From Torpedo marmorata (Eukaryota): a stretch of DNA of 64,000 nt. Below are positions 371 through 62,556 of the stretch, piece by piece. Within the stretch, counting starts at the first letter, position 1, and every line of letters begins with the position of its first letter. The stretch is from assembly GCA_977017645.1 (NCBI GenBank), contig OZ360221.1, positions 156,116,001 to 156,180,000 on the forward strand. The letters are read 5' to 3'. A program made the position numbers and the translations under genes. The notes beneath the pieces are model-generated. The model was not told where the DNA came from, searched no databases, and worked only from the letters and a program-made list of their open reading frames with translations.

Positions 371-492
371 GTTCAATTACATGAAAAATATAGAAGCAAA
401 GCTCCAGAAGCCAGCTTTTGAAATAAATGTGTTCAATGACACTCTAATGCAAGGTGACAAGGGAAGTGTTGCGAGTATTGACCTTCCAGAAG
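371..492 (+). CDS. PNGase F-like gene, internal exon A ([10 protein letters not shown]...SIDLPE)
   Basis: Acceptor tttctacAG (369-370) and donor G|GTAATA (493-494). 122 nt, open; the terminal G plus AC of the next exon makes GAC (Asp). Confidence 0.82.
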
Positions 493-6400: not shown

Positions 6401-9400
6401 GCTACAGCTCGCCTCATATCCTCCCTTCCTTCCTTAGCCACCCAGACCAGACTCCATCCCAGAGACCTGATCGCTGTGGCTTGTCCCTGGTAGGTCCCCC
6501 CACCCCCCAACAGTTTCCAAAAAGATATACTTGTTATTGAGGGGAACGGCCACAGGGGTGCCTGTTCCCTTTCCCTCTCCTGACTGTCACCCAACTACCC
6601 TCCTCCTGCCTCCTAGGTGTGATAGTGTCTCTGTAACTCCTGTCTATCACCCCCTCTGCCTCCCAAATGATCCTTAACTCTGTTTGTAAGGAGCTGCAGC
6701 TGGATGCACTTCTCGCAGATGAAGTCGTCAGGGATACTGCTGGCTTCCCTGACAACACATATTCTGCAAGAAGAGCATTCCCCTGACTTGGCTGCCATTG
6801 CCACTCTCTATGACTAGAGGAAAAAATATATGATAAATAAAATAAAATATATGATCAATAAATGGGCAGCACGGATGGCGCTACGCCTTTACAGCGCCAG
6901 CGACCGGGACTGGGGTTCAAATCCTGCGCTGTTTGTAAGGAGTTTGTTCATTCTCCCCGTGTCTGCATGAGTTTTCCCCCGGGGGCTCCAGTTTCCTCCC
7001 ACAGTTCGAAACGTACCGGGGGTGTAGGTCAATTGGGTGTAAATTAGGCGGCATGGACACATGGGCCGAAATGGCCTGTTACCGTGCTGTATGTCTAAAT
7101 TTAAAAATTAAATTAAAAACCTGCCTTTACTACTTTTCAAAGAATGAAAGATAAATTTAATATATTAAATAATACGTATTTTGCCTATTTCCAAATTAAA
7201 GCATTTTTAGTTGAAAGGTTGGGCCATAATTTGACTTTACCTCGACAAAGTGAATTTGAATTATTAGTTACAAATGGAGGTGTAAATAAATTTATTTCTC
7301 AAATGTATAAATTATTACAGAGGAAAATGCCTAAAGTAGCTATCCATAAATCAAGATTAAAATGGGAATCAGATTTGAATGTAACTATAGAGGAAAAACA
7401 CTGGAAAGAATTATGTAAACTAAGTATGACTAAGATTATTAATGTTAGATATAGATTAGTGCAGTATAATTTTTTCCATCAATTATATTTAACACCTAAA
7501 AGATTAAAGAAATTTAATCCGACATTATCAGATTTATGTTTCAGATGTAATAGAGAGGAAGGTTCTTTTGTACATTCTACATGGTTTTGTCCAAAGATTT
7601 CTGATTTTTGGTTGAAAGTTAAGGAATTTTTGGACAAAGTATTAAGAATTACACTCCCAATGGATCCTATGATATTTTTATTCGGAGATATTAAAAGAAT
7701 TAGTATTATAACGAAATTAAATATGTATCAAATAGAGTTTTTGAGAATTGCTCTAGCTGTTGCTAAGAAATGCATTGCTATTACTTGGAAATCTGATGTA
7801 GATTTAGGTTTAGAAAGGTGGCATGCAGAACTTCGTTCATGTATACCACTTGAAAAAATTACTTATAATATACGTAATAAATATCATTTCTTTTTGAAAA
7901 CTTGGAGCCCATACATAAAAGCGGTTGGTCTAAGAATTTGAAGATCTCCAGAGATCAGATCAGACTGGTGAACCTATTTTCCACAATAGATTTAGTTTAT
8001 AGTTGTTCTTTGTTGTAGATTGACATTCTCCTTATTTTATCTTTTTCTTTTTTATCTTATTCTATCTTTTTCTTTCTTTTATTTTATAGATTAGTAGGGG
8101 TGGGAGGGTTAGGGTGGGGAGGGTGGTTGGGGGGGAGAAAATGTATTACATGTATTTTGATAATTTTATATTACGCTTTATGTATTTTGTGATTTAAAAA
8201 TTTTAAATAAAATATTTAAAAAAAAACAAAAACCTGCCTTTACCCGTGCCTACCTGCTGAATCCTTTTTGTTCCTCGATGGCGGCGCTGCCGGAGCCACT
8301 GTAATGGCAGCGCTGCCGCTGGTGCGGACCCACGGGGAGCGAGGAGCGGAGATACAGCGCTCCCGCGGGGTCCAACTGCCCAGTCAACTGCCGTCAGCTC
8401 CGTACGGACTTTGAACGGCCCGTTAAAGGAGCTGACGGTAGTTTTATTTAAATTCCCGTGACCGCGGGGTCTGCGCCCAAGTTGGCAGCGCCTCTGATCG
8501 GCAGCAGCCACGAGGGGTTGCAGACTCCAGGGGAGCAGAGGACTGGCGCAGGGCACCAGAAAACGGGGAGACCATCCCCATCTGAGAAGGAGAAGCAGAG
8601 GAGACGACCCACAGGGTGGTGACCATGGCGGCGGACCAGTGAGGGGTTCTGCGGCTGAAAGACCAATGCATGCGGCGGGCTGCTGGCGACTCGAGGCGAG
8701 GAACCCGCGGAGGCTGTGGGCTGCTGGAGACTGCTGTCGGGAGACTCGCGCCAGGCTGCGGACTGCTGGAGACTGGTTCGAACTGGCTGAAGGGGTACCA
8801 AGTATCGGAACCGGGATGCGAGGGGGTGCCGAAGGCGCTGAAGGGTTCCTGACTGTGTCGGAGGTTCGGATCTGGAGCTCGGGTTGCCAATAGTTTGGAC
8901 TGGACTCTGTGTGGTTGCGGAGGTGCTGGAGGCGAATCTACGGAACCTGGGTGACTCTGGGGGGACTCTCTTTTGCTTCTCTTTCTCTGACTGTAAGAGG
9001 CACTTCAGGCAATTTCTGCCGATGGCGAATCTGTCTGCCTTACAGCAGGCAACAGCAATTTTGTGTAATATGACACTGTTTTATTGCATGACAATATCTT
9101 GAATCTTGAATAGGGTGGCCCTTACTTAGTTCAACTCCTGCACCACCACCTCAGCCTCTTTTCGCTGAAGCCTCTTGAGCCAAAGCCTTACTACTCTGAC
9201 TCAGAGCACTCCGACGATGACCCGAAGACAGTGTTCCCTATATTTGATGCCTCAAAACCTGGAAACTTATTTTTAAACAGTTGTTAAAGCACATCATTTC
9301 AAATTATTTATTTTCCACTGAAAGCATTCACAATATTTTTCAAGTATTCTTTTGAATGTGTATTTACTGAAATCATTCATCTTGAGGTTTTTTTTCAATT

Positions 9401-15400: not shown

Positions 15401-18400
15401 GAGTTGGAGACTCAGGATCCTGTCAGAAATTCCACCCTGACCCAAGGTGTTTTATTTTGGGTAATGTGCAGGTCCAGTAAAGAAATGTGATACTAAACTA
15501 ATCAGAAATGGGGAAAAAGGCTTATGAAAGACTGCAGTAGCTTGATAGAAATAAGGATAATTGATCGTGGGAGACCAGAATAGTTATCTTGCACAAAATT
15601 TGATGAGGTGGGTATTGCAAATATATATCTGGTAAAAAAAAATTGAAGCATCCCTTTCTGTCTTCCATAGACCTACCTTCATTTAACCATCTAGATCTTG
15701 ATGTTTCATTGTCATGTCCTGGAACAACAGATGAAACTTGTGCTCATTGGGATCACAAAGTTCAGCTTTATGTGTGCTGCAAAGAAAACAGCTCGTACTG
15801 CAACCTTGAACTTGGGAGATGGATTACACCATTCCGGAGGTAAACAAGTACTTTGAACTCATTCCATATCCCACCACCTTATACGGTAAAAAAAGATGTC
15901 CCTCAAGTCCGTTTTATATCTATCTCTTCTCATCTTACATTTGTGCCCTCCAGTTTTAGATTCCCTGCTCTGTGGAAGAAAAAAGACTGACTATTTACCT
16001 TATCTATGTGCCTTATAATTTTATAAACCTAAGGTTCCCCCCTCAGTCTCCTACGCTCCAGGGAGTAAAGGCCCAGTTTGTACAGCCTCTCCTTATAATT
16101 CAAGCCCAGTAACTTTCTTGTAAATCTTTTTGAAGCCTTTCCAGCTTAATGACACCATTCTTATTGCTCGCTGATGAGAACTGCACAGAGTACTGAATTG
16201 CACTCAATATTCTAAGTGTGGTCTCACCAATGTCTTGTCCAGTAGTGACATGACATCACTGCTCATGTACTCAATGCCCTGACCAATGACATCGAAAACC
16301 CTGGCAAATTTCTACAGAAATTTCTACAGGTGGAAAGTGTGCTGACTGGCTGCATCACGGTCTGGTATGGGGACACCAATGTCCCTGAATGTAAAGCCCT
16401 GCAAAAGATAGTGGTCACAGCTCAGGACATGACGGGTAAAACCCTCCCCACTGTTGAGAACATCTACAGGGAACGCTGCCATCAGAGAGCAGCAGCAATT
16501 ATCAAGGATCCACACCACCCAGCACATGCTCTGTTCTCGCTGCTACCATCAGGAAAGAGGTATGGGTGCCACAAGACTCACACCACCAGGTTCAGGAACA
16601 GCTGCTACCCCTCCCCCATCAGACTCCTCAACAACAAACTCAATCAAGGACTTGTTTACGGACTCTTATTTTTGCACTTAATTGATTTTTTTCTCTCTTT
16701 CTGTATTGTACGTTGAGTCCGTTTTTTTTTGCACTGCCAATAAGTGGTAATTCTGCCTCGCCCGCAGGAAAAAGAATCTCAGAGTTGTATGTACTCTGAC
16801 AATAAATCTGAAATCTGAATCTGAAGGCAAACATACCAAGTGCCTTTTTCACCACACCTGGGCATTGGTTGGACAGGAGCAAGATCAGAGTGGGGAAGCC
16901 AGGGTCATGGAATGACATTGGAGGGATGTGCCCTCGGCCTTAAGGGATTGCACATGTGGTTTGGGAGTGAGATTCGGGAGTGGTGTAGGCATTAATGCCA
17001 TGTGAGGGCATGGTGTTTCAATGGAACAAAGAAAATTAATTTATAGGGGTTGTTTCAACACTGCATTTTGGAGGCATAGTGGTCCTTGGAATGACCAACA
17101 ATGACTGTACATGAAGTGACCTGGTATAATTTCCCATACAATCGAAAAGGAACTTGATGTTGGGAATTATGCAGTCCTGCGTGTGAGTAATATAGGAATC
17201 ATTACAGGTGTATTAATCAGACATAGAACACTACAGCACAATACAGGCCCTTCAGCCCTCGATGTTGTGTCGACCCATATATCCCTAATGTCTAAGAGTC
17301 TCTTAAATGCCCCTAATGTTTCAGCCTCCACCACCATCTCAGGCAAGGCATTCCAGGCACCCACAACTCTCTGTGTAAAAAACTTACCCCTAATGTCTCC
17401 CCTAAACTTACCTCCCCTAACTTTGTGCATATGTCCTCTGGTGTTTGCCATTCCTGCCCTGGGAAACAGGCGCTGGCTGTCCACCCTATCTATACCTCTC
17501 ATAATCTTGTAGACCTCTATTAAGTCTCCTCTCATCCTTCTACACTCCAAAGAGAAAAGTCCCAGCTCTGCTAACCATGCCTCATAAAACTTGTTTTCCA
17601 ATCCAGGCAACATCCTTGTAAATCTCCTCTGCACCCTCTCCATGGCTTCCACATCCTTCCTATAATGAGGTGACCAGAACTGAACACAATACTCTAAGTG
17701 TGGTCTCACCAGAGATTTGTAGAGTTGCAACATGACGTCTCTACTCCTGAACTCAATCCCCCTATTAATGAAGCCCAGCATCCCATAGGCCTTCTTAACT
17801 ATCCTATCAACCTGTGTGGCGACCTTGAGGGATGTATGGATTTGAACCCCAAGGTCCCTCTGTTCATCCACACTCCTAAGTATCTGACCATTAACCCTGT
17901 ACTCAGCCTTCTGGTTTGTCCTTCCAAAATGCATCACCTCACACTTATCCGGATTGAACTCTATCTGCCACTTTTCTGCCCAACTCTGCATCCTGTCTAT
18001 ATCCTCTTGTAACCTTTGACAACATTCAGCTCCATCCACAACTCCTCCAACCTTCGTGTCATCCGCAAACTTACTGACCCATCCTTCCGCCTCTTCATCC
18101 AGGTCATTTATAAAAATCACAAAGAGCAGGGGTCCCAGAACAGATCCTTGCGGCACTCCACTAGACACCGACCTCCAGGCAGGATACTTTCCTTCCACTA
18201 CTACTCTCTGCTTTCTTCCTGCAAGCCAATTTTTTATCCACACAGCCAAGGTTCCACTGATCCCATGCCTCATGACTTTCTGGATGAGTCTCTCGTGGGG
18301 GACCTTGTCAAATGCCTTGCTAAAATCCATGTAGACCACATCTACCACACTACCCTCATCAATTTCTTTTGTTACTTCCTCAAAAAACTCAATTAGGTTT

Positions 18401-30400: not shown

Positions 30401-33400
30401 GTTGTACTATGTATAAGGAAGAAATTTAATTGTAGCAACAACCCTTTCCAGAAGTTCTTTCATGTAATCACATTCTGACTGGTATTGTCGAGTAATCAAG
30501 TATGGTCTTCACTTGAAAACAGTTTGCAGTTAAAACAGAATGCCTTACCTGTGCTTGGAGAATAGCACAGCCAACTTCTCCTGATTTTCTTGCCATTTGT
30601 AAGGGAGCAGTAAAACATGGGCTTACTAAAGTAACGTTTCTGTTTACTGTCATATTTTATAGATTTCACAATACTGGCATTTATGTTGCAACAGGCTTCG
30701 CTCCCTGTCTTTAACCAGTATACACGCATGTTAACGCCAACTCGTGACGTAATAACGTCGTCATGGTAAACACAATCTCGCGGCTGCAGTATGAAGTCCT
30801 AAAAGCATTACTTCTAAATGTTTATATGTTTGGAGCCTAATTTAGAAAACAAAATAGTATTTGTAATATTCCAGATATGAAAAAAATATATGCAAAAGTA
30901 TTGAAATATCATCCAAAATACTCACATGTACACTCAATTAATTAAACCATTTTCTTTTTCTTACTCTCGGGCCCCCCTCCCTTCCAGGCCCCTAGGCTTA
31001 AGCCTACTCAGCCTAATGGTTAATCAGCCACTGCCTCTCATGCACCCACACAGCTGGAGCTGCAGCTGGAGCCTCCTAGCTCATCATGTCCACATCTAGC
31101 ATTGCACAACTGCAGTGTCACAACCTCTGGTTTTACCACACTGTGGTCTCCAGGAGGGGAGAGCTTGCAACACGAGCAGAGCAGGTGACTGCAGGAATGG
31201 GATTTGGACCAACGCGACCAGAGGACTCCCACCTCACCCTTCTCGCCCCCCTCTCCCTCCTCGCCCATCCCCCAAGCTCAAAGCAGTTCAGCTTTGTGTG
31301 AGAGCCAAGGCAGGGAACACCAGTGAGCCGTTCAGTTGGGGGAGACATCGCAGCTGCCTTGGATCTGGTTCCCAGGCAGCAGGTCAGCACACAGGAAGTC
31401 AAGCCCTGTCCTCTCTTGAGCTGGGTTTCCCCACCACAGCTCCAGGCGAACTGCAGATCTATGGCCTCCTGAGCTCAAGATTCAGCCCACTTAAAAAGAG
31501 CAGGAGAACACCCCCCCCCCACCGAATCCATTTATGTAGAAAGAGGGAGTAGGAAAGAGTGGAGACTCAAAATTACAGTGTCACCCAGTGTTGAAACTAA
31601 GAAGTGCAATGGTAGCATAGTATTGTTCCAAATGGCAGCAGCATCTAGTGTTAAAACTAAGAAGTGCAATGTACATACAGTGCAATTCATTGTTAGAGAC
31701 TATGGGCAATGGGCCACAGGTGGCCCGTGGGCTGTAGTTTGGCCACCCCTGCTCTATATAAAGGTAAGTCCCCTTTTAGTATTTTCACCCATAGTTTGCC
31801 AAAATGGTTATTCTTATCTATCCAAATTATAATTACAGACGCATTGGCCATTGGTTAACAGATGTCTCTCCTCTTCTACCCCTACTTAATGCTGCAAAAT
31901 GCACGTTCACAATGAAGACTGTGCCATGGGCCATGCCCTGGAGACCAACACTAAATCTTCGATTCAGTAAGGTAAACCAGGAATCAACAGGTAGGAAACA
32001 GCTGCTTTTTATTTGTGATTAATATGTTTGTGACTGGAGATGAAGCAAATCATACCAAGATCTTTGATTTCTTTTTATTGTACCTGATAAAGGAAATAGT
32101 GTATGCAGGAAGGAACAAATATTTAACAGGAGAAATCTAACGGAAAGAATGCTAAAATACTGCATTGGTTTTGCTTGAATTCTAGGTCAAAATGTGAGAA
32201 TGTGAGTTAATAGAATAATGGAAAATTGAGATAGTATATTAACAGAAATTTGAATCAAGCAATTTTAAATTGCTACTGTCCATGTGTCCAAAATCCATTG
32301 CTAATTGTAATAATTGCCTTGTGACACAAAATAACCCAGTTTTACTTGTATGTTACTGGCGCATGACCGCTATTGAGTTTCTATCCAATAATCTCATCTA
32401 AATCAGGAGGGTAAAAAGAGGATATGATATGAAGCTGGCAGGCAGGATAAAGGAAATAGTATTTCCTTTATCAAGAGATTCTACTGATATATTAAGTGTA
32501 AAAGGATGGCTAGGAGGAGAATTACTCTCATTAATGATCAACAATCCTGACTTTATGTGGAGCCACAGAAGATAGTTGGAATTTTAAATGGAGGAGATCA
32601 TGGAAGCCAAGGAATTGGAGAAAATGAATGATGAGATGCTCAACCATGTTAAAACTACCAGGGAGAAAATCTTAGCAGCCTTGGAGTTCATAATAGGACC
32701 TAAATCATTTGGGTAGGTGGGCCAAGGAGTAGCAAATGGAATTTAACTCTGACAAGTATTAGACAAGGTCGGACTTGCACACTGAATGGCAGGACCCTGG
32801 AGAGTGCTGTAGAACAGAGATACCTTGGGGTACAGGTGCATTGTTCCTTGAAAGTGGCAACTCAGATTGATAAGGTGGTGAAGAAAGCATTTGGCATGCT
32901 GGTCGTCATTGGGTGGGGTATAGAGTATAAAAGTTGGGACCTCAGTACAGCTGGACAAGCTGGACAAGTCATTGGTGAGATCACTATGCAGTTCTGGTCA
33001 CCCAGCTATTGGAAGAACCTCCATAAATTGGAAGGAATGCAGAGGAGATTCACTAGGATGATGCTGTGATGAAGCGTCTGAGTTATAGGGAGAGGTTTGA
33101 TAGGCTGGGTCTTTATTTCCTTAGAGTGAAGGAGATTGAGGGGTGATCATCGAGGGGCATGGATAAAGTGAATGCTCATAGTCTTTTGCCCAGGGTAGAT
33201 GATTCTAGAACTAGAGGGCATAGATTTAAGGTGAGAGAGAAAGATTTAAGATGGATGTAAAAGGCAACCATTTCACTAGGAGGGTGGTTTGTGTCTGGAA
33301 CAAACTGCCAGAGGAAACTGTAGAAGTAGGTACAATAACATTCAAAAGACATTTGAACAGATTTATGGAAATAAAGCATTGAGAAGGAAATGGATAAAAT

Positions 33401-39400: not shown

Positions 39401-42400
39401 TGCCTTCTTTCGGCTGCACCTCACATAGATGTATTCAATGGATGGGAGGTCGCAGCCTGTGATGGACTTGGCTATGTTTGTTACCTTCTGGACCCTTCTG
39501 CAGTCCTCGGCATTCAAATTCCCAAATCAGGGTGTGATGCAAACAGTCAGTGTACTTTCCATAGTGTACCTGTGGAAGTTGATGGAATATTCAACGGCAT
39601 GCCAAATCAAGGTTGCTAAGATGTTGAGACTGTGAACTGTTGATATATGTAAATATTTTATATTTATTATCTCTTTCTGTACTAGGGTAATTTAATGTTT
39701 ACTATTGGAGTTCGTTTTTTTTAAAAATAACTACCTGTTTGGCTGCAGAAAGTAAGAATTTTGGTGCATGTATAAATTTTACTTATGTGTATGACAATAA
39801 GCATTATCATTTACCCTGAAAGGATTCAAAAGATTGCTATTTTGCAATAAATAAGTTCTGTGTGAGACCCACTGATATACTGCTGGTGAAATATATCCGT
39901 TCAAAAATTACTCTGTGCAAGGTGAAAATTATGATCAGAGAAGCACCTATAAATACAATAAACTATTAGTGAATCTTCTTGCAACATTGCATTATTTATT
40001 TCGACTATACAGTAATTGTAATTCCAGTTCTATGTACTTTGACATATATACTGTATATGTATACTGTATATACCGGTATTTTATCTTCTAGGGTACAATT
40101 CAACACTGCATCCATTTCAACTACTTCAGCTCTTTACTGGTGGCACTTTTGATAAGAATTACAACAAGAAGTATCAGCCTATTAAATTTGTTGTGCCACC
40201 CTCTACCAGGAAGGTAAAGAATATCAGAACATGATGCATCTAACTGTGATAAATGGCAGACTTGTGTATGGTATTAACTCAAATGTTTGATATCCTAGAC
40301 TGAATGACTATTTTCTGCAACTACGGTAGGTTGCGAAAAGCATGGAATGTTCAGTAATCTAGTAATCGAGAGGTAACCCAAACATGAGTATAATGCATCT
40401 GTCAGTACATTTTTTTAAAGCAACATAATATCGAGGTTTCACAACCAACAAGTTTTAGCAGGCATAAAGATGCAATATTAATTCTTTGACTCCAAACATT
40501 CAAGCCGACACAGTTGCAGAGAGGGAGAGGCAGAGGGGAATGTACATTTGCTGACATTCTTTTGCTCTGGCTTGCCTCCTCTCAATCAATCTTGCTCAAT
40601 GCTATCTCTCCATGTATGGACATATGTTGTAACTCTGTTATAACAAAGATGTTCCATCTTACCCTCATTGCAATGGGAAATCACAGAGCACTCAGGAGAG
40701 TCGGAGACCAGATATGGGTGCTCAGCAATCTATAGTGACAGCTATCATTAAAGTCTTGGCATGTTACGTATGTCAATTCGATGTCACATACAACAATGTC
40801 GAGTTGACAATGTCAAGATTGAGTGAAATGTGATATTTATAATGAAAAGGATAATAAATAAACATTCATTTTTTTGTCTCCTTTATGTCTTTACCCTCTC
40901 AAAGAAAGTGATCTAGATTGTTGATGCACCCCAAATGTGGCTAGTGGATGTGGTTAATATATATATTGTAGCCATTCTGGGCAACAATGGGCATCATTAT
41001 TGATGTCACTTTCTATTACATCCTCGTAAGGGAGGAATTGAGCTCTTTATTTCATGCTGTAAGTCCAAACATGGTGGGATTGATAAAGGGAGACCAATGC
41101 TACAGATAGTGGTGAAGACAGAAAATATTCAGCTGGTCAGACAGCATTATTCTATCTCTAAAGGCACTGCCTGACCTTAATATTTTTGAGCATTTTCTCT
41201 TTTAATTTCAGATTTTCCAGTATCTCCAGTTTTTTTTTGCTTTCTCCTGAAGATTGTGGTACTCTATTGTGGTAATGAAGAAAGAAAAATAACATACTTC
41301 TGCAGTTATACCTTATTCTAGGTTTCTTTTGCCTTGTTATTTTTAAAGAAGTAATAAGTTAAACTGCACCCATTCAGTCTATCTGGTTATATTTGTGATC
41401 ACTCTTCACAACCTCCTTCAGTTTACTTCATTTAACACAATCAACAGGGCTTTCTAATTCTTTGTGAATTTATCCAGCTTTTCCACAAATGCTATATACT
41501 TCAATAATACCTTCAAATAGCAAACTCCTTCCAATAACTCCCTGGGTAAAGAAAGAGAGTCTGGTGAACAGCTGAACCAGTGCTTTGAGGAGGAGGAGCT
41601 GAATTGTGATTGGCTCTTTGGAGTCATAGCAGCCAATAAAAGTAGAGTGGGAATTACTAACCATGCTCAGAGATCAGAATTAAGAAAGGTGCAAACACTC
41701 TGATAGGGCTATACTATAGCTTCTCAATAGCTTCTGGGAGGTAGAGGAATTTGTTATTTGCATCCATGAGAGTTTCTTGAAGCAGCATGTAGATGGTTCA
41801 AACAGGAAGGAGGCTGCACTAGTCCTTGCATTGGCAACTGAGCCTGGCCAGGTGCTCGGAGTTTCAGTGGAGGAACATTTTGGGAATACTGTTCACTCTT
41901 CCTTAACCTTCAAGATTGTTATGGAGAAAAATAAGATGGGCCTTGTGGAAAAGTACGAAAATGGAGGGAAAATTAAGACATGATTAGACAGGAGCTTGGG
42001 GATGGTAATTTGGAGCACCTGTTATCAGGCAAGCTCACATCTGACATGTGGGAGTTGTTTCGGGATCGACCAATTAGAGTCTAGGACGGACAATGTTCCA
42101 GTGCGAAGGAAGGATAAGGATGGCAAGGTGAGAGAAGATTGGATGATGAGAGAGGTCATAAATTTAGTCAAAAAGAGGCATATGTAAGGATTAGGATCTA
42201 CAAACAGACATGGCCCTAGAGGAATATAAAGATTGCAGGAAAGAGCTTAGGCAGGGTATGAAGAAGACCAATAGAGTTCATGAAATGTCCTTGGTGAGCA
42301 AGATTAAAGAAAAGGAATGGAAAACCTGGGGTGTATAATTCAGTGATCATTGGGGTATCAGAGATAGAGAGGGTGAGCAAATTTAAATTCCTGGGATTCA

Positions 42401-45400: not shown

Positions 45401-48400
45401 TGGTCAACTTCCACCAGGAGAAGGCTTTCGACCGGATATCGCACACGTACATGATGGATGTGCTCTCCAAAATGGGCTTTGGAGAGGGAATCTGGAATTG
45501 GATTAAACTGCTCTACACAGACATCTGTAGAGCAGTCTAAATCAATGGGTGGGAAACAGATAGTTCCCCATCAAGTCTGGAGTTAGGCAAGGCTGCCCAC
45601 TGTCTCCATTCTTATTTGTGTGCTGCATAGAGCCCTTTGCCGAATCCATCAGGAGGGATGAGCGCATAAGAGGAGTGACGTTGCCAGGCAGTGGAGGCAC
45701 TCAGATCAAAGTCTCCCTGTACATGGACGACGTTGCCATCTTCTGTTCGGATACACGATCGGCCTGGAGACTGACCAGCAAATGTGGGCATTTTGAGTCT
45801 GCATCAGTCGCCAGGGTAAACCAGAAGAGCGAAGCAATGCTCTTCGGTAACTGGCCTGACCGGTCCACCATCCCCTTCACAGTCAGATCTGACTACCTGA
45901 AGGTGCTGGGGATCTGGTTTGGAAAGGCTAAGGCGTGCAACAAGAATTGGTCGGAGTGGATTGCAAAGGTCCACCAAATATTGGGTATGTGAGCACGGCG
46001 CTACCTCTCAATAACAGTGAAGAACCTGGTCACCAGGTGCGAGGTGCTCTCGGTACTGCTGTACGTGGTGCAGGTGTGGCTCATCCCCCGCACCTCCGTC
46101 CTGGCTGTCACCAGAGCAGTTATCCGATTCATATGGGGTCCAAAATGGATAGGATCTGAAAGGGCACCATTTACAAGTCGCCAGCCAATGGGAGCAAGGG
46201 CGTACCCAAAGTGGCCCTCATCCTGATGACCACCTTTGTGTGTGGCTGCATCAGGCTGTGTGTGGAACCAAAGTACAAGGTCACCAAGAGCCGCTATGTG
46301 CTGAGGTTCTACCCGTCCCAGGTGTTGCGAAGGATAGGCCTGGCCCCGTTGCCGCGCAATGTCACAGTTAGCTGGACTTTGCCATGCCACTTATCCTTCG
46401 TGGAATTGTTTTTTCCAGAAAAACACCTTTGACCACAAGGCCATCAAACAGTGGTCAGCACGGAATGTCCTGCAGAAACTGAGAGATAAGGACTCAATGG
46501 ATCCGGTGGGATGGTTCCCTGAGCAGACTGTCCAGGTCATCTGGCAGAATGCCTCATTGCCAGGGCTCACAAACAAGCACCAGGACTTGGCCTGGCTGGT
46601 GGTGAGAGGAGCCCTCCCAGTGAGATCCTTCTTGTACAAACAAAACATCACCCTCCATGAACGTTGTCCTTGGGATGGCTGCGGTGGAGTGGAGACTGTC
46701 AGCCACCTCTTTGCTGAATGCAGATTGGCAACGAGTGTGTGGAGAAGGATGCAAGGTCACGGTTCATCCCCAGCGGCATTGTGACAAAGGACTCTCTGAT
46801 CTACAGACTCTTCCCGGGGACACACTTGGAGTCCGACATCCAGAGCTGCTGGAAGGCCATCAACTCGGTGAAAGATGCTCTTTGGTCTGCCCGAAACCTG
46901 TTGGTCTTTCAGCATACTGAGATGTCGGTCCGGGAATGCTGCCAACTGGTGCATTCCAAGCTGCAGGAGTACATGCCGAGGGATGCACTGAGGCTTGGTG
47001 CAGCCTACGTGAGGGCGCTGTGGGGAAGGACCACAGTCTAGAGTCCTCCCATTACAGGGCACTGAGGGGCTGAGACCGAGGGGAAGCCCCTCAACCAAAC
47101 GTAGGAGGGAGAAACGACAAGATGCCACAGTAGTAGTAACGGGGTATTGAGAAAACAATGTACATTGATGAGAATGTTTAGATATGACTGACATAGGGGC
47201 ACTAGAGAGAGGTTGATGGAGTAAGTCACAACCTACAGAGCTCCTGCGAGTTGTTATGATAAAGCATTATTTAACAGCAATCCAGGCAGTGTCCTACCAT
47301 TGGATTATAGTTGGCAACACTTTGAAGTAACAGGGGTGGATTTTGAAGTGTTGAAATGCCTAACAAGAAGGCTAAAAGTAGAGACAGTATGCAGCAGCCC
47401 CAGAGGCCCACCCTGCAGACTAAAGCCTGGGCCTCGCCTGATCCTGTCTCCCCGGGCAGCTTACTGTCAGACCATGAAGAATAGGTAACTGACTTTTGAG
47501 CAGCTAAAGCTAGCAACGTTGACTGAACTTAGTAAAGACATTGTAGAGACCTTTAAAATGGAGATAAGAATACGTATTGGAGAAGAACTGGCTGCCCTTA
47601 AGGCGTAGCTACAGACCGTAAAAACGCAATTTGTGGCCGAAAAAGTATCCACAGACACCAAACTGAGAGAAGTTAAGGATACTGTTGGGGAGATAGAACG
47701 TTCAATATCGGGGTGTGCCGATGACATCTGTTCAATGCAAAAGAAAATTAAAACTCACACCACTGATATGATGAAGCTGGAAAATAGATGTGAGGATTTG
47801 GAAGCGAGGTTCCGGAGAAATAACATCAGGATAGTGGGAGTTCCTGAAGAAACCGACAACACGAGTAAAAACTTAGTACCAGCTTTATTAAAAGAGGCGT
47901 TCGGACTGGATAAAGAGCCACTGGTGGATCTAGCACACCGCACCCTACGGCAGATACCAGGGCTGGGGGAGCGCCCACGGTCCATAGTGGCCAGACTTTA
48001 CAATTACAGTGATCCTATGTCGTGCCAGAGAACGCCGCGAGGTAAAACTGAAAGGATGACTATCTCTGTTTTCCCTGAACTTCCTGCGAAAGTAGCCTGA
48101 AAGTGTTCAATGACGTCAGACGGGAACTGCGTACCCTGCAAGGGGTCCGATACGGGTTAATCTACCCAACCCAACTACGGATCACTTACGACGACAAGGT
48201 GAAGGATTTCCTCTCGGGTGAAGAAACAACTGATTAAATCGCGAGTGCAATGGGGTGCTGCCACTTAGAAACTATAGAACAATTACAGCAAACAGGCCAC
48301 TTCGGCCCCTCTTGTCTGTGCCGAACCACTTTTTCTTGCCTAGTCCCACTGACCTGCACTCAGTCCATAGACCACCATACCTCTCCCATCCATATACCTG

Positions 48401-51400: not shown

Positions 51401-54400
51401 GAAAGTTCTTCTCATCTGGACTGGAAGTTTTAGAAGAATTAAACCAAGCAGAAAACCTTTATCCCATTTCAAAATGCAAGTCCCATTACTGATAATAGGC
51501 CTTTCCCGAGTGCAGATTTTCATCAGGCAAGACTTTAGCATGATGTAGACAATGACAAAATTAAACAGTTTGTTTCAAAGTATCAAAGAGGCCTTGTTTT
51601 GAAATTAAATTAATTTTTAAATTCATGACTAATTATATAGTTCTGTTCCCATAGTTGGGGTTCAGTTTTAGCCTTGGTGTGGTATAAAATTGGGAATAAT
51701 GGATTGACAGTCTATTTCAATATTTTTATTGATTTTATCAAATAAATGATACACAGGTACATACAATAAAATAAAGTATTAACAAATCTTGTATAACAAT
51801 ACAAATACAAATAATGTTGAAACCTATGTTACATTAAAAGGAAAAATAAAAATAAAACCACTATACTAATTTCTAAATATCGATCCCTACCTTCGGAAGC
51901 TACTGGCTTAACACAAACAATCCACTGCTAATAATAAAAAAAAGGGAAGGTAAACATTGGGTTCAAAAACCAGAAACTAATTGATCGTAAAAATCTTGAA
52001 AGTAATTAAGAAAAGAACCCCATAAAGAAACAAAATTAAGATTAATTTCAGTCGTGGAACATCGAATTTTTTACAAAGTCAGACATGCCATCATATCGGA
52101 CAACCATTGATTATGAGTGGGAGGGACAGCATCTTTCCATCTCATTAATATGGCCTTTCTTGCGATAAGGGAGGCGAGGGCAACTACATGGGATTGTGAA
52201 GCAGTCACAATTAAACCAGTTGGCTCACTTATTCCAAGGAGAGCAATAAAAGGATTTGGAGTCAAAGTAATATTAAGAACTAAAGACAAGGTACGAAATA
52301 CTCCTTCCCAGAAAATGGAAAGAGAAGGACATAACCAAAACATATGATACAACGTATCTTCTTCAGAAGAGAGATTAGAATAAAATTTAGCTAATTGAAC
52401 TTTGGAATAGTGGGCTCGGTGCACTACCTTAAATTGTAATAATGAGCACAAAGAGGATGAATGCACTCGCTTCAAAATAGAATTCCATGTAGTTTCAGAA
52501 AATAACTTGAAAATCTTGTTCCCATAGCTTTTTAATTCTGTCCAGGGAACTATCCCTAGAATTTAAAAGTAATTCATAAAGGCCAGATACCACCCCTTTG
52601 TAATTAAGTTGAAAATTATCAATCATCCCTATCATATTACGTTCCAGGTCTTCAGGGAGCTTCAAAATTAAAGATTTCAAAAAGCTCCTAACCTGTAAAT
52701 AGCGAGAAAAATGATGTCTTGGTATTGACACAGTCTAACTGAGGAACATCAGCAGGTTGTCTATAATGACAGCTCATTTCCAACATCCAGTTTTACCACA
52801 CCCCAATATTTAATTTTTTTTTCTTGTTAATTTTCAATATTCACTCTTAAGTGAAGATAAAATAACCCATCACAGCTTGAGAAATTTTATTCAGCAGAAA
52901 TTATTTCATTTTGATACAACAATGTTGTAGCAGTCAAAGGCTGATTGTTAAATTCCCACACAAAATTATCATAACCAATACAATATAATGAGTCATAAAA
53001 CATAATAAGTTACATTTCAGCAAAGACATGAGATGGACTGAGATCTAATGATTAATGTTTCTTCATGTAGATTTCAATTCTGCAGTTGAATTGCTAAAAT
53101 GATAACCCATGTACTTCACAGTTCACTGATTTCAGAGATGCTTCTTTAAAGGTATCTGTGATGGTGCTTGTTTATTATGTAGTCTGTTTCTCCATGTTAA
53201 TATCTAACAAAAATCCTTTAAATCATTTTCTGATTGCTTCTATATCAGGATGTGACATTCTGTTGAAGCCTAAATCAACAGAAATTGGGCCAAAGAATAG
53301 ATTGCTCACCTACACTTTCTATGGATCCACATTGTACCCAGTTCCACTGTTTCCACCTCTTTACCTATTGTTTCTTCCTCCCTTCCTCACTTGAAAGTGG
53401 TGAATGATAAGGGGAGAGAGGATGGAATCAAGATGTGAGAAAATAAGTTCTGTGGACTGTTCCACAGGACCATCCTGGCAGGCCCATTGTTTCCGCCTGC
53501 TCTTGCCCCACTGAACGTATTTCCTCATATCTTGACTCCATCCTCTCTTCCCTTGTCCAGTCCTTTCCTATTTACATGCAGGATACCTCCAATGTCCTGC
53601 ACCTCTTTGACGACTTCTGATTTCTTGGTCCCCACCGTCCTTCACCGTGGATGTCCAGTTTATATTGACTTCATATTGATGACTTTTATTGGGCATTATG
53701 TGCTTGCATATCTTTCTGAAATTGTAGTATTAAGTGAATTATAGTACAGGTACAATGATTGCATCCATTGTTTAAATGTCAAGAACATGGAACAAACTTT
53801 GCTGCTTGCACCTGATACATATCCCTCTATTCCCTGCATTTTCATGTGTCTATTTCGAAACCTCTCAAAACTGCTTCCACCTCTACTGGCAGCCCGTTCC
53901 AGGCACCTAGCACGTTTTTTTTTAAAACTAGCCCTACACATCTCCTTTAAACTCCCCCTTCCCTTCAAGTCACTTACATGCATGTCCTCTGGTATATGAT
54001 ATTTTAACCTTGGGGAAAAGATTATGACCCTATCAATGCCTCTCATAATTTTATAAACCTATCAGGTCACCTCTCACCCTCTGACACACCAGATAAAACA
54101 ACCCAGGTTTGTCCTTTCGCTCATACCCTCTAATCGCTTCTCCACACACAATTCCAAGTGTGGCCTAACCAAAATTTTGTACAGCTACAACAGTATGTCC
54201 TTACTTTTATACTCAATGCCCCACCCATTGAAGGCAAACATATTATTTGCCTTTACCCACCCTATCTACCTGCATAGCTACTTTCAAGAGCTATGGAACT
54301 GAACTCCCAGATCCCTTTGCACATCACTGCTTTCAAGTCCTGCCATTTACTGTATCCTCTCCCCCTACAGGGCGGTACGGTTGGTGTAGCGGTTAGCGCA

Positions 54401-60400: not shown

Positions 60401-62556
60401 ATTTCAGTGTTTCTTAATGAGACATCTGCAAAATATTTTTTTAAGATGCATTTCTGGGAAACAACTACAGAGTACAATATGTACAATAATAACATTAGAA
60501 CATGGATTTTCATGAAAATTCTTTTAGCCTGCATCTTAATAAATATATTATTCTTATTCATCGAAATGTGATAGTTCTACAGCATGGAAACGGACCCTTC
60601 GACCAAACATGTCCATACTGAGCAAGCTAATTTCATTTGCTTGCATTTGGCCTTTCTCCTTCTAAACCTTTCCTATCCAAGTACTGTCTAAATTTCAGAT
60701 TTATTGTCAGAGTACATACATGACATCACATACAACCCTGAGATTCTTTTTTCTGCTTTTGAACATTACAATTGTTCCTGCCTCTACCACTTTCTCTAGC
60801 AGCTTGTTCTATCAGCCCTCTGTCAGAAGAAGGTCCCTCTCAGGTCCCTTGTAAGATTTTTCCCCTCTCACCTTAAACCTATGCCCTTTAATTGTAGATT
60901 GCCCTATCTATGCCCCTCATGATTTTACGAACCTCTATAACGTCCCATTTCTATGTTGCAGGGAGAAAAGCCTCAGTCTATCCAGCCTCTCCGTATAACT
61001 CGCGACTAGTCCTGGGAACATGCTTGTGAATCTTTTCTGCACCTTTTTCAAATTAATTACATTTTTCCTATAGCTGTGTTACCAAAGCTGCACACCACAC
61101 AATACTTCAAGTTTCGTCTCACCAATATCTTGTATAGTTGTAACATGATGTCACAGCTTCTCAATGCCCTGACCAATGAAGGCAAGTGTGCCAAATGCCT
61201 TCCTTACCATCCTGTCTACCTGCAATGCCACCTTCATGGAACCACCCACCTACACCACAAAGTCTTTTTTTATTTTATAACACACTCCATTCATTATACA
61301 AGTCTTGCCCTGGTTTAATCTAGGAAAGTACAACATTTTGCACTTGTCAGAGTTAAATTACATCTGCCATTTCTTGGCCCACTTTCGCAGTTCATCTAGA
61401 TCCTGTTGTAATCACCTTCACTGTCCACTATACCACCAATTTTAGTGTCATCCACAAACTGACTAAACTTGCTAACTACATTGTCATCCAAGTCATTAAA
61501 TATCAATAACAAACAACAGTGGACCCAGCACAGATCCCTGTGGCACACAGGAGTCCAAGTGAGTAATAACCCTCTAAAGGCATCACAGGCATCCAATCTG
61601 AGTAACAAGCCTCTACTGCCTCCTCTGTCTCTTACCATCAAGTCACTTTGGTATCCAATTGGTCTGCTCATCCTGGATCCACTATGATTTGGCCTTCTGG
61701 ACCAACCTACCATGTGGAACCTTGTCAAAGGCCTCGCTGAAGTCTATCTATACAACATCTACTGCCCTGCCCTCATCAATCTTCTTGGTCACCTCCTCAC
61801 GAAACTCAATCTTTCGTGCGACACTAGTTCCCATACACAAAGCCATGCTGACTAACTAATCAGTCTGTGCCCTTCCAAAGGAGATCCTGTCACTCCGAAT
61901 CACCTCCTGTAACTTACCCATGAACGATGTTAAGCTCACCAGCCTGTAATTCCCTGACTTGTCCTTTACAGCCAACATTAGCCACCTTGCAGTCTTCTCT
62001 CACCACACCCATGCTGAACAATAATGTAAGTATCTCTGCCAAGGCTCCTCCAATTTTTTCCCCTAGATTCCCATAATGTTGCAGTATACTCTTGATTGAC
62101 ATGGACTCTCTTCAAGTCACCACTAGTTGTTTGAGTTCCTTGGTCTCCATGTCTTTCTATATGGTAAATGCAAATGAGAAATCTTCATTTCGGACCTTGC
62201 CCTTTTCATGTGACTCAATACATAAACAACCTTGTTGATCATTATGGAGCCTATTCTTTTGCCTTTAATATACTGGTAGAATCTCTTGTTTGTTACATAA
62301 ATGTGATTACACGTTATTTCACATTAAGTTTTATTTGTAGTGATATACAGTATAACCAGTTTTCAGTGAACTGTGTATATTTTAATCTTTCAGGGGTATT
62401 TCTGACTCACACATTTTGTTCTATTGCAGGTTGAACTCTATGCTGTGATCACAGGCCATGGGAGTGATGAGAATGGCTGTGGAGAGTTTTGTGTCACTTC
62501 TCATCACTTTATAATTAATGATATATTTAATAATTCAAGGATATTTGACAATGCTG
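371..62556 (+). CDS. Partial multi-exon host gene encoding a PNGase F-like (peptide-N-glycosidase F domain) protein; 5 internal exons, 692 nt of CDS, both ends outside the window
   Basis: Exons 371-492, 15671-15839, 31839-31990, 40092-40213 and 62430-62556 are all bounded by AG/GT, and their phases match (1,2,1,0,1). Spliced product: [230 protein letters not shown]. Motifs parallel PNGase F (CDEWD, EIGRFITPY, DVTDF, ISGWG, GCAEWC). From memory it resembles the fish si:dkey-256h2.1-type gene (unverified). Confidence 0.88.
2907..5283 (-). mobile_element. Internally deleted non-autonomous BEL/Pao-type LTR retrotransposon inserted in the CR1
   Basis: Two 596-bp direct repeats (2907-3502, 4688-5283) with about 9 substitutions by eye. 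5-bp TSD GGCAT (2902-2906, 5284-5288). PPT-like TTAGGGGCCGG abuts the 3' LTR on the - strand. Internal ORF resembles BEL gag N-terminus (S-rich then coiled-coil); no pol. Confidence 0.85.
3550..4314 (-). pseudogene. Truncated gag N-terminus of the LTR element, with a SAP-like motif and one in-frame stop
   Basis: ORFs 3973..4314 and 3550..3900 share a frame and are separated by a single TAA at 3973-3975. [31 protein letters not shown] fits the SAP pattern; SVSVSN...[17 protein letters not shown]...[12 protein letters not shown] is BEL gag-like. Confidence 0.7.
6864..7114 (+). mobile_element. tRNA-derived V-SINE (HE1-like)
   Basis: tRNA-like head with B box GGTTCAAATCC; V-domain GGAGTTTG..TTCTCCCCGTGTCTGC...GTTTCCTCCCAC; CR1-like 3' end GGGCCGAAATGGCCTGTTACCGTGCTGTA. 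Confidence 0.85.
7131..8227 (+). mobile_element. 5'-truncated L1 (ORF2 C-terminus, 3' UTR, polyA) with 16-bp TSD
   Basis: Open 265-aa ORF 7144..7941 with CCHC knuckle (CFRC...HSTWFCP); AATAAA and A tail; TSD AAAAACCTGCCTTTAC at 7115-7130 and 8228-8243. Confidence 0.92.
8263..9111 (+). mobile_element. GC-rich non-coding retroposon with Rex1-like 3' end
   Basis: Starts ...CGATGGCGGCG and ends ATGACAAT..(CTTGAAT)2. The same 3' end recurs on the - strand at about 57545-57663. Inserted in the CR1 5' region. Confidence 0.65.
10040..10242 (+). mobile_element. Rex1/Babar LINE 3' UTR fragment (family B)
   Basis: Nearly identical to the 3' end of the 24200-25030 copy; ends GACAATAAA(CTTGA)3. Confidence 0.75.
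10295..10559 (+). mobile_element. L1 3' UTR fragment with polyA and 14-bp TSD
   Basis: G-rich then AT-rich UTR, AATAAA and A tail; TSD AAGAATAATTTTTC at 10281-10294 and 10560-10573. Confidence 0.75.
10813..11839 (-). mobile_element. ~1 kb GC-rich non-coding retroposon with Rex1-like tail and YY1-like 5' motif
   Basis: The - strand begins ...CCCAAGATGGCGGCGG and ends ATGACAATAAATTGAAC(ATCAAT)n. Flanked by GGATATT at 10806-10812 and 11840-11846. Confidence 0.65.
11953..12024 (-). pseudogene. tRNA-Asp(GTC) pseudogene
   Basis: Reverse complement TCTTCCTTGGTATCGTGGTTAGTATCCCCTCCTGTAATACGAGAGACCGGTGCTTAATTCCCCAATTGGTAG aligns gap-free over 72 nt to canonical vertebrate tRNA-Asp. Anticodon GTC>GTA; T-arm and acceptor stem are damaged. 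Confidence 0.85.
12035..12256 (+). mobile_element. Penelope-like (PLE) terminal-repeat fragments, one nested in another
   Basis: Motifs CTGAGTTTCTCCAGCAC and CCAGCTTCTGCA..CTCTTG are shared with the other PLE ends in the window. Confidence 0.6.
12533..13593 (+). mobile_element. 5'-truncated decayed L1, same family as 7131-8227
   Basis: ORF 12500..12802 is nearly collinear with ORF 7144..7941; it has stops, an internal deletion and the same 3' UTR. Confidence 0.88.
14180..14271 (-). mobile_element. 92-bp Penelope-like end insertion with 14-bp TSD
   Basis: TSD CTTTATATTTGGCT at 14166-14179 and 14272-14285; sequence matches the PLE end at 37256-38349. Confidence 0.72.
15671..15839 (+). CDS. 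PNGase F-like gene, internal exon B ([15 protein letters not shown]...CAHWDH...[10 protein letters not shown])
   Basis: Polypyrimidine tract plus AG at 15669-15670; donor AG|GTAAAC at 15840. 169 nt; overlaps ORF 15643..15843. Confidence 0.9.
15865..16857 (-). mobile_element. Old CR1 3' fragment interrupted by a Rex1 copy
   Basis: CR1 3' motifs CTAAGTGTGGTCTCACCAATG and TACTCAATGCCCTGACCAATGA; CR1 resumes as AGGCAAACATACC after 16824. Confidence 0.7.
16289..16824 (+). mobile_element. Rex1/Babar LINE 3' fragment (family A)
   Basis: [13 protein letters not shown]...[20 protein letters not shown]...[13 protein letters not shown]; tail GACAATAAA(TCTGAA)n. Confidence 0.85.
17221..21065 (-). mobile_element. 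Near full-length CR1 LINE with an open 632-aa RT-containing ORF
   Basis: ORF 17167..19065 ([34 protein letters not shown]). Endonuclease in 19059..19706 and 19723..20484 (YFNARS, GDFS, SDH). SGNH-like VHVGTND at about 20480. Frameshifts separate these ORFs. Confidence 0.95.
21110..21390 (+). mobile_element. CR1 3' end fragment
   Basis: [28 protein letters not shown] followed by the CR1 3' UTR GGGCTGAAGGACCTGTACTGTG. Confidence 0.8.
22120..22304 (+). mobile_element. Penelope-like insertion (inverted partial end plus end) with 12-bp TSD
   Basis: TSD GCCGCCAATCTG at 22108-22119 and 22305-22316; internal inverted arms GAAACTCAGCAAG...AGGAAGTAAAGG / CCTTTACTTCCT...AGTTTCTCC. Confidence 0.75.
23974..24197. 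mobile_element. Inverted pair of decayed Penelope-like ends
   Basis: ACTCAGCAGGTCGAGAAGCA...TTTATCAAG is inverted against CTTGATGAAG...CTGCTTCTCATCCCGCTGAGTTCCTCCAGCA. Confidence 0.55.
24200..25030 (+). mobile_element. Rex1/Babar LINE 3' fragment (family B)
   Basis: [16 protein letters not shown]...[14 protein letters not shown]; tail GATAATAAACTTGAATTTGAA. Confidence 0.85.
25700..26060 (+). mobile_element. Ancient L2-type LINE RT remnant
   Basis: [41 protein letters not shown] parallels the L2 motif LLKVTNDIL...SLLVLLDLSAAFDTVDHxILLxRLS. Confidence 0.6.
27060..29030 (+). mobile_element. Old CR1 remnant containing a young CR1 3' fragment (about 27305-28225)
   Basis: The young part is close to the reverse complement of 685-1600 ([17 protein letters not shown], tail GATTCTATGGTTCTA). 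The flanks hold degenerate CR1 RT motifs. Confidence 0.85.
29398..31751. mobile_element. Non-autonomous hAT (Charlie-like) DNA transposon, 2354 bp
   Basis: TIRs CAGGGGTGGCCAAA / TTTGGCCACCCCTG; 8-bp TSD CTCTACAT (29390-29397) / CTCTATAT (31752-31759), fitting the NTCTANAN-type preference. Confidence 0.88.
30272..31033 (-). mobile_element. Nested, internally deleted hAT (Tip100-like) with transposase N-terminal fragment
   Basis: TIRs CAGTGACGGATTAAC / GTTAATCAGCCACTG; TSD CCTCTCGT (30264-30271) / CCTCTCAT (31034-31041); ORF 30496..30729 [22 protein letters not shown] is a TTF/ZMYM1-type zinc-finger start. Confidence 0.85.
31839..31990 (+). CDS. PNGase F-like gene, internal exon C ([16 protein letters not shown]...[13 protein letters not shown])
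   Basis: Acceptor ttacAG at 31837-31838; donor CAG|GTAGGA at 31991. 152 nt; phases match both neighbours; overlaps ORF 31804..32022. Confidence 0.88.
32420..33490 (+). mobile_element. Old CR1 fragment
   Basis: [33 protein letters not shown]; CR1 3' UTR at about 33450-33490. Confidence 0.8.
34441..35580 (-). mobile_element. Rex1/Babar LINE fragment (family A) including RT core
   Basis: ORF 35160..35534 [21 protein letters not shown]...[10 protein letters not shown]; C-terminus in 34670..34918; 3' tail at about 34441. Confidence 0.9.
35679..35980 (-). mobile_element. L1 3' end fragment with 18-bp TSD, inserted in a PLE end
   Basis: PolyT then TTTATT; TSD TTTTCTATTTTGATTTCT at 35661-35678 and 35981-35998. 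Confidence 0.75.
36439..37131 (-). mobile_element. Solo LTR, 693 bp (Gypsy/ERV type)
   Basis: TGTTA...TAACA termini; 4-bp TSD CTAG (36435-36438, 37132-37135); TATAAA near 37085 and AATAAA near 36505 on the - strand. Confidence 0.8.
37256..38349 (-). mobile_element. Penelope-like end fragment interrupted by Rex1
   Basis: GTCTGCAG...ATGCTGGAGA|Rex|AACTCAGCAGG...TTTCGGGCTTGAGTCCTTCATCAAGG followed by a purine-rich tract; possible TSD ACTTAGAT (37248-37255, 38350-38357). Confidence 0.65.
37316..38003 (+). mobile_element. Rex1/Babar LINE 3' fragment (family A)
   Basis: ORF 37465..37863 ([20 protein letters not shown]); tail (TCTGAAA)n. Confidence 0.88.
38985..39610 (-). mobile_element. Rex1/Babar LINE 3' fragment (family C)
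   Basis: ORF 39146..39517 [10 protein letters not shown]...[17 protein letters not shown]; simple-repeat tail at 38985-39015. Confidence 0.8.
40092..40213 (+). CDS. PNGase F-like gene, internal exon D (YNSTLHPF...[25 protein letters not shown])
   Basis: Acceptor tcttctAG at 40090-40091; donor AAG|GTAAAG at 40214. 122 nt, open in the required phase. Confidence 0.87.
42314..43082 (+). mobile_element. Rex1/Babar LINE 3' fragment (family A)
   Basis: [17 protein letters not shown]...; tail GACAATAAATTTGAACTTTGA; CR1 sequence on both sides. Confidence 0.88.
47195..50214 (+). mobile_element. Internally deleted L1 (5' UTR, ORF1, ORF2 start and C-terminus, polyA)
   Basis: ORF1 [17 protein letters not shown]...AHR...PRSIVARL (47633..48100); ORF2 start SWNIRGM at about 49378 joined to C-terminal CNRC...HMFYQCP (49472..49903); AATAAA plus A10 at about 50190-50214. 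Confidence 0.85.
48266..48882 (-). mobile_element. Young CR1 3' fragment nested in the L1
   Basis: Near-identical to 685-1303; ORFs 48340..48573 and 48584..48844. Confidence 0.9.
51715..52729 (-). mobile_element. L1 3' fragment (different family)
   Basis: [10 protein letters not shown]...HMFWLCP...[10 protein letters not shown] (52071..52475); possible TSD ACAGTCTA (51707-51714, 52730-52737). Confidence 0.82.
53462..53662 (+). mobile_element. Penelope-like element reverse transcriptase fragment
   Basis: Translates [44 protein letters not shown]...(fs)TVDVQ, matching the PLE RT motifs RPIVS, YxxDT and MDVxSLY. Confidence 0.8.
54370..54625 (+). mobile_element. tRNA-derived V-SINE (HE1-like)
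   Basis: A box TGGTGTAGCGG, B box GGTTCAAATCC, V-domain and (TTTAAA)n tail; same family as 6864-7114. Confidence 0.9.
55390..55646 (-). mobile_element. tRNA-derived V-SINE (HE1-like)
   Basis: Reverse complement of the 54370-54625 family. Confidence 0.9.
57545..57663 (-). mobile_element. 3' fragment of the 8263-9111 retroposon family
   Basis: GGCAGACAGATTCGCCACCGGCAGAAATTGCC is the reverse complement of 9008-9039 with one mismatch; same (CTTGAAT) tail. Confidence 0.7.
58507..60058 (+). mobile_element. 5'-truncated CR1 inserted into the 3' end of an older opposite-strand CR1-type element
   Basis: [12 protein letters not shown]...[10 protein letters not shown]...EYCVQFWSP; tail (CTATTGT)2; duplication ATCATGG at 58500-58506 and 60059-60065. 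Confidence 0.88.
58737..59110. mobile_element. 374-bp composite palindromic hAT MITE, copy 1
   Basis: TIRs CAGTGGTTTTCAAACTG / CAGTTTGAAAACCACTG; perfect TSD ATTTAGAT (58729-58736, 59111-59118); splits the CR1 RT at INDLD|EG. Confidence 0.92.
60570..62270 (-). mobile_element. Old CR1 fragments with a small Rex1-A tail inserted at about 60693-60756
   Basis: [23 protein letters not shown] (61396..61728); CR1 3' UTR at 60570-60690. Confidence 0.78.
62430..62556 (+). CDS. PNGase F-like gene, internal exon E ([27 protein letters not shown]...)
   Basis: Acceptor ttgcAG at 62428-62429; donor G|GTAAGG at 62557. 127 nt; carries the ITGHG and GCGEFC motifs. Confidence 0.92.

What the first reader, a model, noticed from the sequence alone, without database searches (positions are those of the whole stretch)
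371..62556. Hidden intron-containing vertebrate gene for a PNGase F-family N-glycanase with the catalytic Asp/Glu motifs retained
Seen: five short exons spread over 62 kb splice in phase with no stops. Known: PNGase F is the flavobacterial deglycosylating amidase, with active-site W59/D60 in CDEWD and E206 in GCAEWC; it is unrelated to the cytosolic NGLY1 transglutaminase-type PNGase. Here CAHWDH and GCGEFC keep both acidic residues, and ELGRWITPF and ITGHG are in the right order. Inference: this animal encodes a second, NGLY1-independent and probably active N-glycanase. The many Cys and N-x-S/T sequons (NDT, NSS, NST) suggest a luminal or secreted enzyme. I know of no well-characterised vertebrate member, but homologs are probably already annotated as uncharacterised proteins.
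Basis: partly seen in the sequence, partly recalled or inferred. Interest (0 to 1): 0.8.

Follow-up and report, generated by a model that had tools for sequence, protein, structure and literature searches.

The report
Ray ortholog of fish Ngly2 N-glycanase
This is the middle of an intact ray gene for Ngly2, an enzyme already shown in zebrafish to cut sugar chains off egg proteins in acidic compartments, and the ray copy likely does the same, so the finding is real but not new.

Summary
The five exons (371-492, 15671-15839, 31839-31990, 40092-40213, 62430-62556) have GT-AG ends and splice in phase. They are exons 6-10 of a 12-exon gene spanning 185 kb that gives a 707-residue protein with no internal stop. 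It is 92% identical to an electric-ray (Narcine) protein and 53.5% to zebrafish Ngly2 (si:dkey-256h2.1). Honda et al. 2025 (PMC12753239) characterised zebrafish Ngly2 as the fish acid PNGase: optimum pH 3.5, lysosomal, ovary-enriched, dimeric by cryo-EM, D421A and E555A dead, knockout eggs almost without free glycans. They report orthologs across fishes, elephant shark included, and none in tetrapods. The ray protein keeps all six active-site residues they name (W460, D461, H462, W520, H591, E600). One public contig carries both junctions around exon 7. NGLY1 exons lie elsewhere on the same contig. Activity, pH optimum and tissue of the ray enzyme are inferred from orthology, not shown. Already known; low interest.

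The parts
371..492 (+). ngly2 exon 6 of 12 (residues 393-434): end of linker and start of the PNGase domain
   Evidence: tblastn; AG/GT ends and phase; its last 30 nt match a loose end of the X1 contig at 29 of 30 letters
15671..15839 (+). ngly2 exon 7 (residues 434-490): CAHWDH with W460, catalytic D461 (codon 15751-15753), H462; ELGRWITPF
   Evidence: covered end to end by the X1 contig
31839..31990 (+). ngly2 exon 8 (residues 490-541): holds W520 (codon 31927-31929), equal to zebrafish W480
   Evidence: its first 30 nt match the other loose end of the X1 contig at 30 of 30
40092..40213 (+). ngly2 exon 9 (residues 541-581): start of the second jelly-roll (PF09113 region)
62430..62556 (+). 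ngly2 exon 10 (residues 582-624): ITGHG with H591 (codon 62457-62459) and GCGEFC with catalytic E600 (codon 62484-62486)

Best explanation
The window holds exons 6-10 of an intact ngly2 gene of a ray, whose product is likely an acid, lysosomal peptide:N-glycanase like its zebrafish ortholog. Shown here: a 12-exon open frame of 707 residues with a hydrophobic N-terminal stretch, thioredoxin-like, PA and PNGase F-type regions, and all named active-site residues. Inferred from zebrafish: it enters the secretory route, is N-glycosylated, forms a dimer through the thioredoxin-like and PA domains and reaches lysosomes. At about pH 3.5 it binds an unfolded glycopeptide in the cleft between PA and PNGase domains. 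D461 and E600 hydrolyse the Asn-GlcNAc amide, releasing the whole glycan and turning Asn into Asp. H462, H591, W460 and W520 hold the glycan core; the protonated histidines are the paper's untested proposal for the acid optimum. Likely role: release of free N-glycans from yolk (vitellogenin-derived) glycoproteins in oocytes.
For: Gene model intact, 11 of 11 introns GT-AG. 645 of 699 identical to the Narcine protein; 350 of 654 to zebrafish Ngly2, 181 of 294 in the PNGase domain. Quick tree of 24 rows: sister to Narcine (SH-aLRT 100), inside rays (100) and cartilaginous fishes (99). Zebrafish W420, D421, H422, W480, H546, E555 equal W460, D461, H462, W520, H591, E600, conserved in 138, 138, 135, 137, 136 and 136 of 138 homologs. 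The Narcine protein matches PDB 9lwg (Si:dkey-256h2.1) at E 1e-244 and PNGase F at E 1e-9. One locus found in the genome. A 766-nt contig joins exon 6 to 7 to 8 without introns. Zebrafish function: PMC12753239.
Against: No activity, localisation or tissue data for this species. Run X1 is only guessed to be RNA, is one contig of depth 7.7, differs at 2 of 171 laid letters and covers 2 of 11 junctions. The signal peptide rests on hydropathy alone. The genome searches give lower bounds, so a second copy is not strictly excluded. The tree is the quick one; the careful search did not finish.
Confidence: 0.93

Rival explanations
1. It is the ngly2 ortholog, but in rays it serves mainly outside the ovary (general lysosomal breakdown, or another tissue) or has a shifted pH or substrate range.
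For: Only 53.5% identical to zebrafish; residue 642 is His here and in 125 of 139 rows but Cys in zebrafish. Zebrafish ngly2 is detectable in other tissues at low level. No tissue data here.
Against: All six named active-site residues, both histidines included, are kept. The paper cites free glycans from unfertilised catshark eggs (its ref. 16, seen as a citation only).
Confidence: 0.15
2. It is a decaying or silent gene copy.
For: No run on record as RNA was available to show expression in this species directly.
Against: 2124-nt open frame over 12 exons and 185 kb, all splice sites canonical, catalytic residues and the conserved cysteines intact; intron-free contig across two junctions.
Confidence: 0.02
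3. It is bacterial PNGase F DNA by contamination or recent transfer.
For: The catalytic domain is of a family first known from bacteria.
Against: Spliceosomal introns of 1.4-40 kb holding LINE fragments, on a 284-Mb contig; the tree follows fish relationships.
Confidence: 0.005

Closest known systems
Zebrafish Ngly2 / acid PNGase (si:dkey-256h2.1; Honda et al. 2025, PMC12753239; PDB 9lwg)
   Same: Same domain order over the whole length; 53.5% identity, 61.6% in the PNGase domain; W420, D421, H422, W480, H546, E555 all kept; no CxxC in the thioredoxin-like region.
   Different: 45 residues longer, mostly at the N-terminus; 11 sequons against the 7 stated for zebrafish; His642 where zebrafish has Cys597; not assayed.
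Annotated cartilaginous-fish orthologs (Narcine, Pristis, Mobula, Amblyraja, sharks, Callorhinchus)
   Same: 64-92% identity; several are already named si:dkey-256h2.1 by their sources.
   Different: Species-level differences only; listed as uncharacterised proteins.
PNGase F of Elizabethkingia meningoseptica (PDB 1pnf, 1pgs, 3pms)
   Same: PF09112 plus PF09113 catalytic domain; D60 and E206 align with D461 and E600, W59 with W460.
   Different: No thioredoxin-like or PA domain, neutral to alkaline optimum, acts on constrained peptides (paper). By sequence alignment R61 and W191 are His here, and E118 aligns with Val518 in a weakly aligned stretch.
NGLY1, cytosolic PNGase
   Same: Same net reaction; present in this genome (PAW-domain exons at C5 about 125.0 Mb).
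   Different: Unrelated transglutaminase-like fold with a catalytic Cys (recalled); cytosolic and neutral pH (paper).

Membership tests
Ngly2 (animal acid PNGase) | PF09112 + PF09113 PNGase F-type domain at the C-terminus | tested here: met
   Window exons 7 and 10 pass both Pfam cut-offs
Ngly2 (animal acid PNGase) | N-terminal thioredoxin-like domain without CxxC and inserted PA domain | tested here: met
   Exons 1-5 align to zebrafish 58-343 (60/128, 69/133, 18/25 identical); PF02225 found in the 92% identical Narcine protein; no CxxC among Cys positions there
Ngly2 (animal acid PNGase) | Catalytic Asp421 and Glu555 | tested here: met
   D461 and E600
Ngly2 (animal acid PNGase) | Active-site His422, His546, Trp420, Trp480 | tested here: met
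   H462, H591, W460, W520
Ngly2 (animal acid PNGase) | Orthology to si:dkey-256h2.1 | tested here: met
   Quick tree groups it inside rays; one locus found; synteny not examined
Ngly2 (animal acid PNGase) | Secretory targeting and lysosomal location | tested here: inconclusive
   Hydrophobic stretch at residues 10-24 and 11 sequons; location not testable
Ngly2 (animal acid PNGase) | Activity at acid pH, homodimer, ovary-enriched expression | not testable with these tools
   Shown for zebrafish only (PMC12753239)
PNGase F (bacterial enzyme proper) | Stand-alone catalytic domain with Arg61 and Trp191 | tested here: not met
   Multidomain; His at both places by alignment. It works like PNGase F but is the Ngly2 branch
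NGLY1 | PUB, transglutaminase-like and PAW domains | tested here: not met
   Only PF09112, PF09113 and PF02225 on the Narcine and zebrafish proteins; PAW maps 31 Mb away

The most novel reading that the evidence does not exclude
The ray enzyme is a functionally distinct Ngly2, with a pH range, stability or substrate range fitted to urea-rich cartilaginous-fish physiology or a role outside the egg, and could serve as a new acid deglycosylation reagent; my five literature searches found no assay of a cartilaginous-fish Ngly2.
Probability: 0.12. Interest if true: 0.35.

Novelty: already known. Interest (0 to 1): 0.12.

Why it matters
A second animal N-glycanase of PNGase F type was a real open question from 1991 until 2025, but it is now answered in print. 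This locus adds one more intact ortholog, in a ray, with its full exon structure. It gives a ready target for testing whether Ngly2 makes the free glycans reported in shark eggs.

Tried and rejected
No RNA holder listed: the run search gave one holder, only guessed to be RNA; this says nothing on expression level or tissue. Junctions of exons 8-9 and 9-10 and the seven others outside were not tested with reads. An AlphaFold job on a 40-sequence alignment headed by the Narcine protein had not finished after eight collecting calls, so no model and no fold search exist; the fold claim rests on sequence match to 9lwg. Sun et al. 2015 (PMC4367255), which the paper credits with first noting the zebrafish homolog, is not held. 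The paper's supplements (alignment Fig. S2, species Table S1) could not be read; they bear on which rays were already listed and on residue pairing. Tetrapod absence was not tested independently: no named tetrapod is among 40 hits or the best 120 of 213, but unnamed rows and 93 unlisted hits remain. No earlier scan notes exist for this genome. Rejected: pseudogene, contamination, NGLY1 paralog.

Full report
Observation. A six-frame scan finds CAHWDH and ELGRWITPF in one frame at 15739-15834, and ITGHG and GCGEFC at 62448-62492, all on the + strand. A search with exon 7 returned 40 proteins among 43 candidates, led by rays: Narcine 95%, Pristis 92%, Amblyraja 89%. The Narcine protein maps five collinear exons in the window. 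With GT-AG ends they are 371-492, 15671-15839, 31839-31990, 40092-40213 and 62430-62556; together 692 nt, 1.1% of the span, in phase and without a stop. Zebrafish Ngly2, as a distant query, hits four of the five at 53-92 bits, against at most 25.8 bits in 30 shuffled windows.

Whole gene. The own-genome search gave 12 matches, all on contig C5, + strand, in protein order (a stricter first look was used, so weak copies may be missed). A PF09113 search found only this locus. Seven further exons were fetched. The 12 exons span C5 156,014,338-156,199,281, all 11 introns are GT-AG, and the 2124-nt frame gives 707 residues ending in TGA. Residues 10-24 are hydrophobic, a likely signal peptide; there are 11 sequons and 21 cysteines. 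The animal is a ray close to the electric ray Narcine, by 92% identity and a quick tree of 24 of 139 rows (SH-aLRT 100; the careful search did not finish).

Splicing. The one run found (X1, guessed RNA) has a 766-nt contig that covers exon 7 exactly, with 2 other letters in 171. Its loose ends equal the end of exon 6 (29 of 30 letters) and the start of exon 8 (30 of 30). So a form without these two introns exists in this species or a close one. The other junctions were not tested.

What it is. Exon 7 matches PDB 9lwg, named Si:dkey-256h2.1, at E 5e-24 and exon 10 at 1e-16. The Narcine protein matches it at 1e-244 and PNGase F at about 1e-9. Honda et al. 2025 (PMC12753239) name si:dkey-256h2.1 ngly2. 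I read its abstract, introduction, results and discussion and passages; supplements were not readable. The text does not give the code 9lwg; I link entry and paper by the molecule name and by residue numbers that agree at an offset of 25. They report an optimum at pH 3.5, almost no activity above pH 6, broad glycan range, no activity on a cyclic glycopeptide, loss of activity in D421A and E555A, weak activity in W480A, a dimer of thioredoxin-like, PA and PNGase domains, co-location with Lamp1, ovary-enriched mRNA, and knockout eggs that are smaller and almost without free glycans. [quoted passage not shown]

Residue test. In an alignment with 138 homologs (5 of 143 held were dropped as under 500 residues), zebrafish W420, D421, H422, W480, H546 and E555 correspond to W460, D461, H462, W520, H591 and E600 here, conserved in 135-138 of 138. 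Identity to zebrafish is 350 of 654 overall and 181 of 294 in the PNGase domain.

Second enzyme. PAW-domain exons that match solved PNGase PAW domains at E 5e-20 lie on C5 near 125.0 Mb, which points to a separate NGLY1 gene; its other exons were not examined.

Mechanism. Shown: intact gene, domains, residues, two spliced junctions. Inferred from zebrafish: secretory entry, dimer, lysosomal location, acid hydrolysis of the Asn-GlcNAc amide by D461 and E600 on unfolded glycopeptides, release of free glycans from yolk proteins. The role of the two histidines in the acid optimum is the paper's proposal and untested there.

Novelty. Already known. Searches for 'ngly2' (3 papers), 'dkey-256h2.1' (1) and three wider ones (listings only) showed one paper on the enzyme and none that assays a cartilaginous-fish copy; the library lacks most subscription journals. 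Interest 0.12.

Noticed in passing
window 17167-20526, - strand (intron 7): Long LINE retrotransposon piece with GDSL/esterase-like, endonuclease and reverse transcriptase (639-aa open frame) matches in three separate frames; this make-up fits the CR1 clade (recalled). Fourteen further related pieces at 63-81% identity lie across the window.
   Followed up: partly
window 7117-7941 +, 52071-52562 -, 47609-48100 +, 35160-35618 -, 16249-16716 +: Other open frames that look like retrotransposon fragments; Pfam supports only 35160-35618 (reverse transcriptase) and, under cut-off, 7117-7941 (zf-RVT).
   Followed up: partly
window 15748-15756 and 62457-62459: By sequence alignment W460/H462/H591 (zebrafish W420/H422/H546) pair with PNGase F W59/R61/W191, whereas the paper's text pairs W420 with W191 and the histidines with W59 and R61. 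Its Fig. S2 could not be seen.
   Followed up: partly
L007 and L008 (G000:C5 about 124.97-124.98 Mb): NGLY1-type PAW exons lie on the same contig as ngly2, 31 Mb upstream; probably coincidence.
   Followed up: partly
L005 586-719 (exon 11), residue 642: The motif after the catalytic Glu has His in 125 of 139 rows, this one included, but Cys in zebrafish, so the one assayed member is unusual there.
   Followed up: no
proteins P0039, P0113, P0122: Three homologs (pearl oyster, an unnamed row, fugu) have Arg at the His422 place, as PNGase F does; natural test cases for the histidine explanation of acid pH.
   Followed up: no
proteins P0021, P0065: Database entries join Ngly2 to septin (Labeo) or to a galactosyltransferase (Gymnothorax); likely gene-model fusions.
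   Followed up: no
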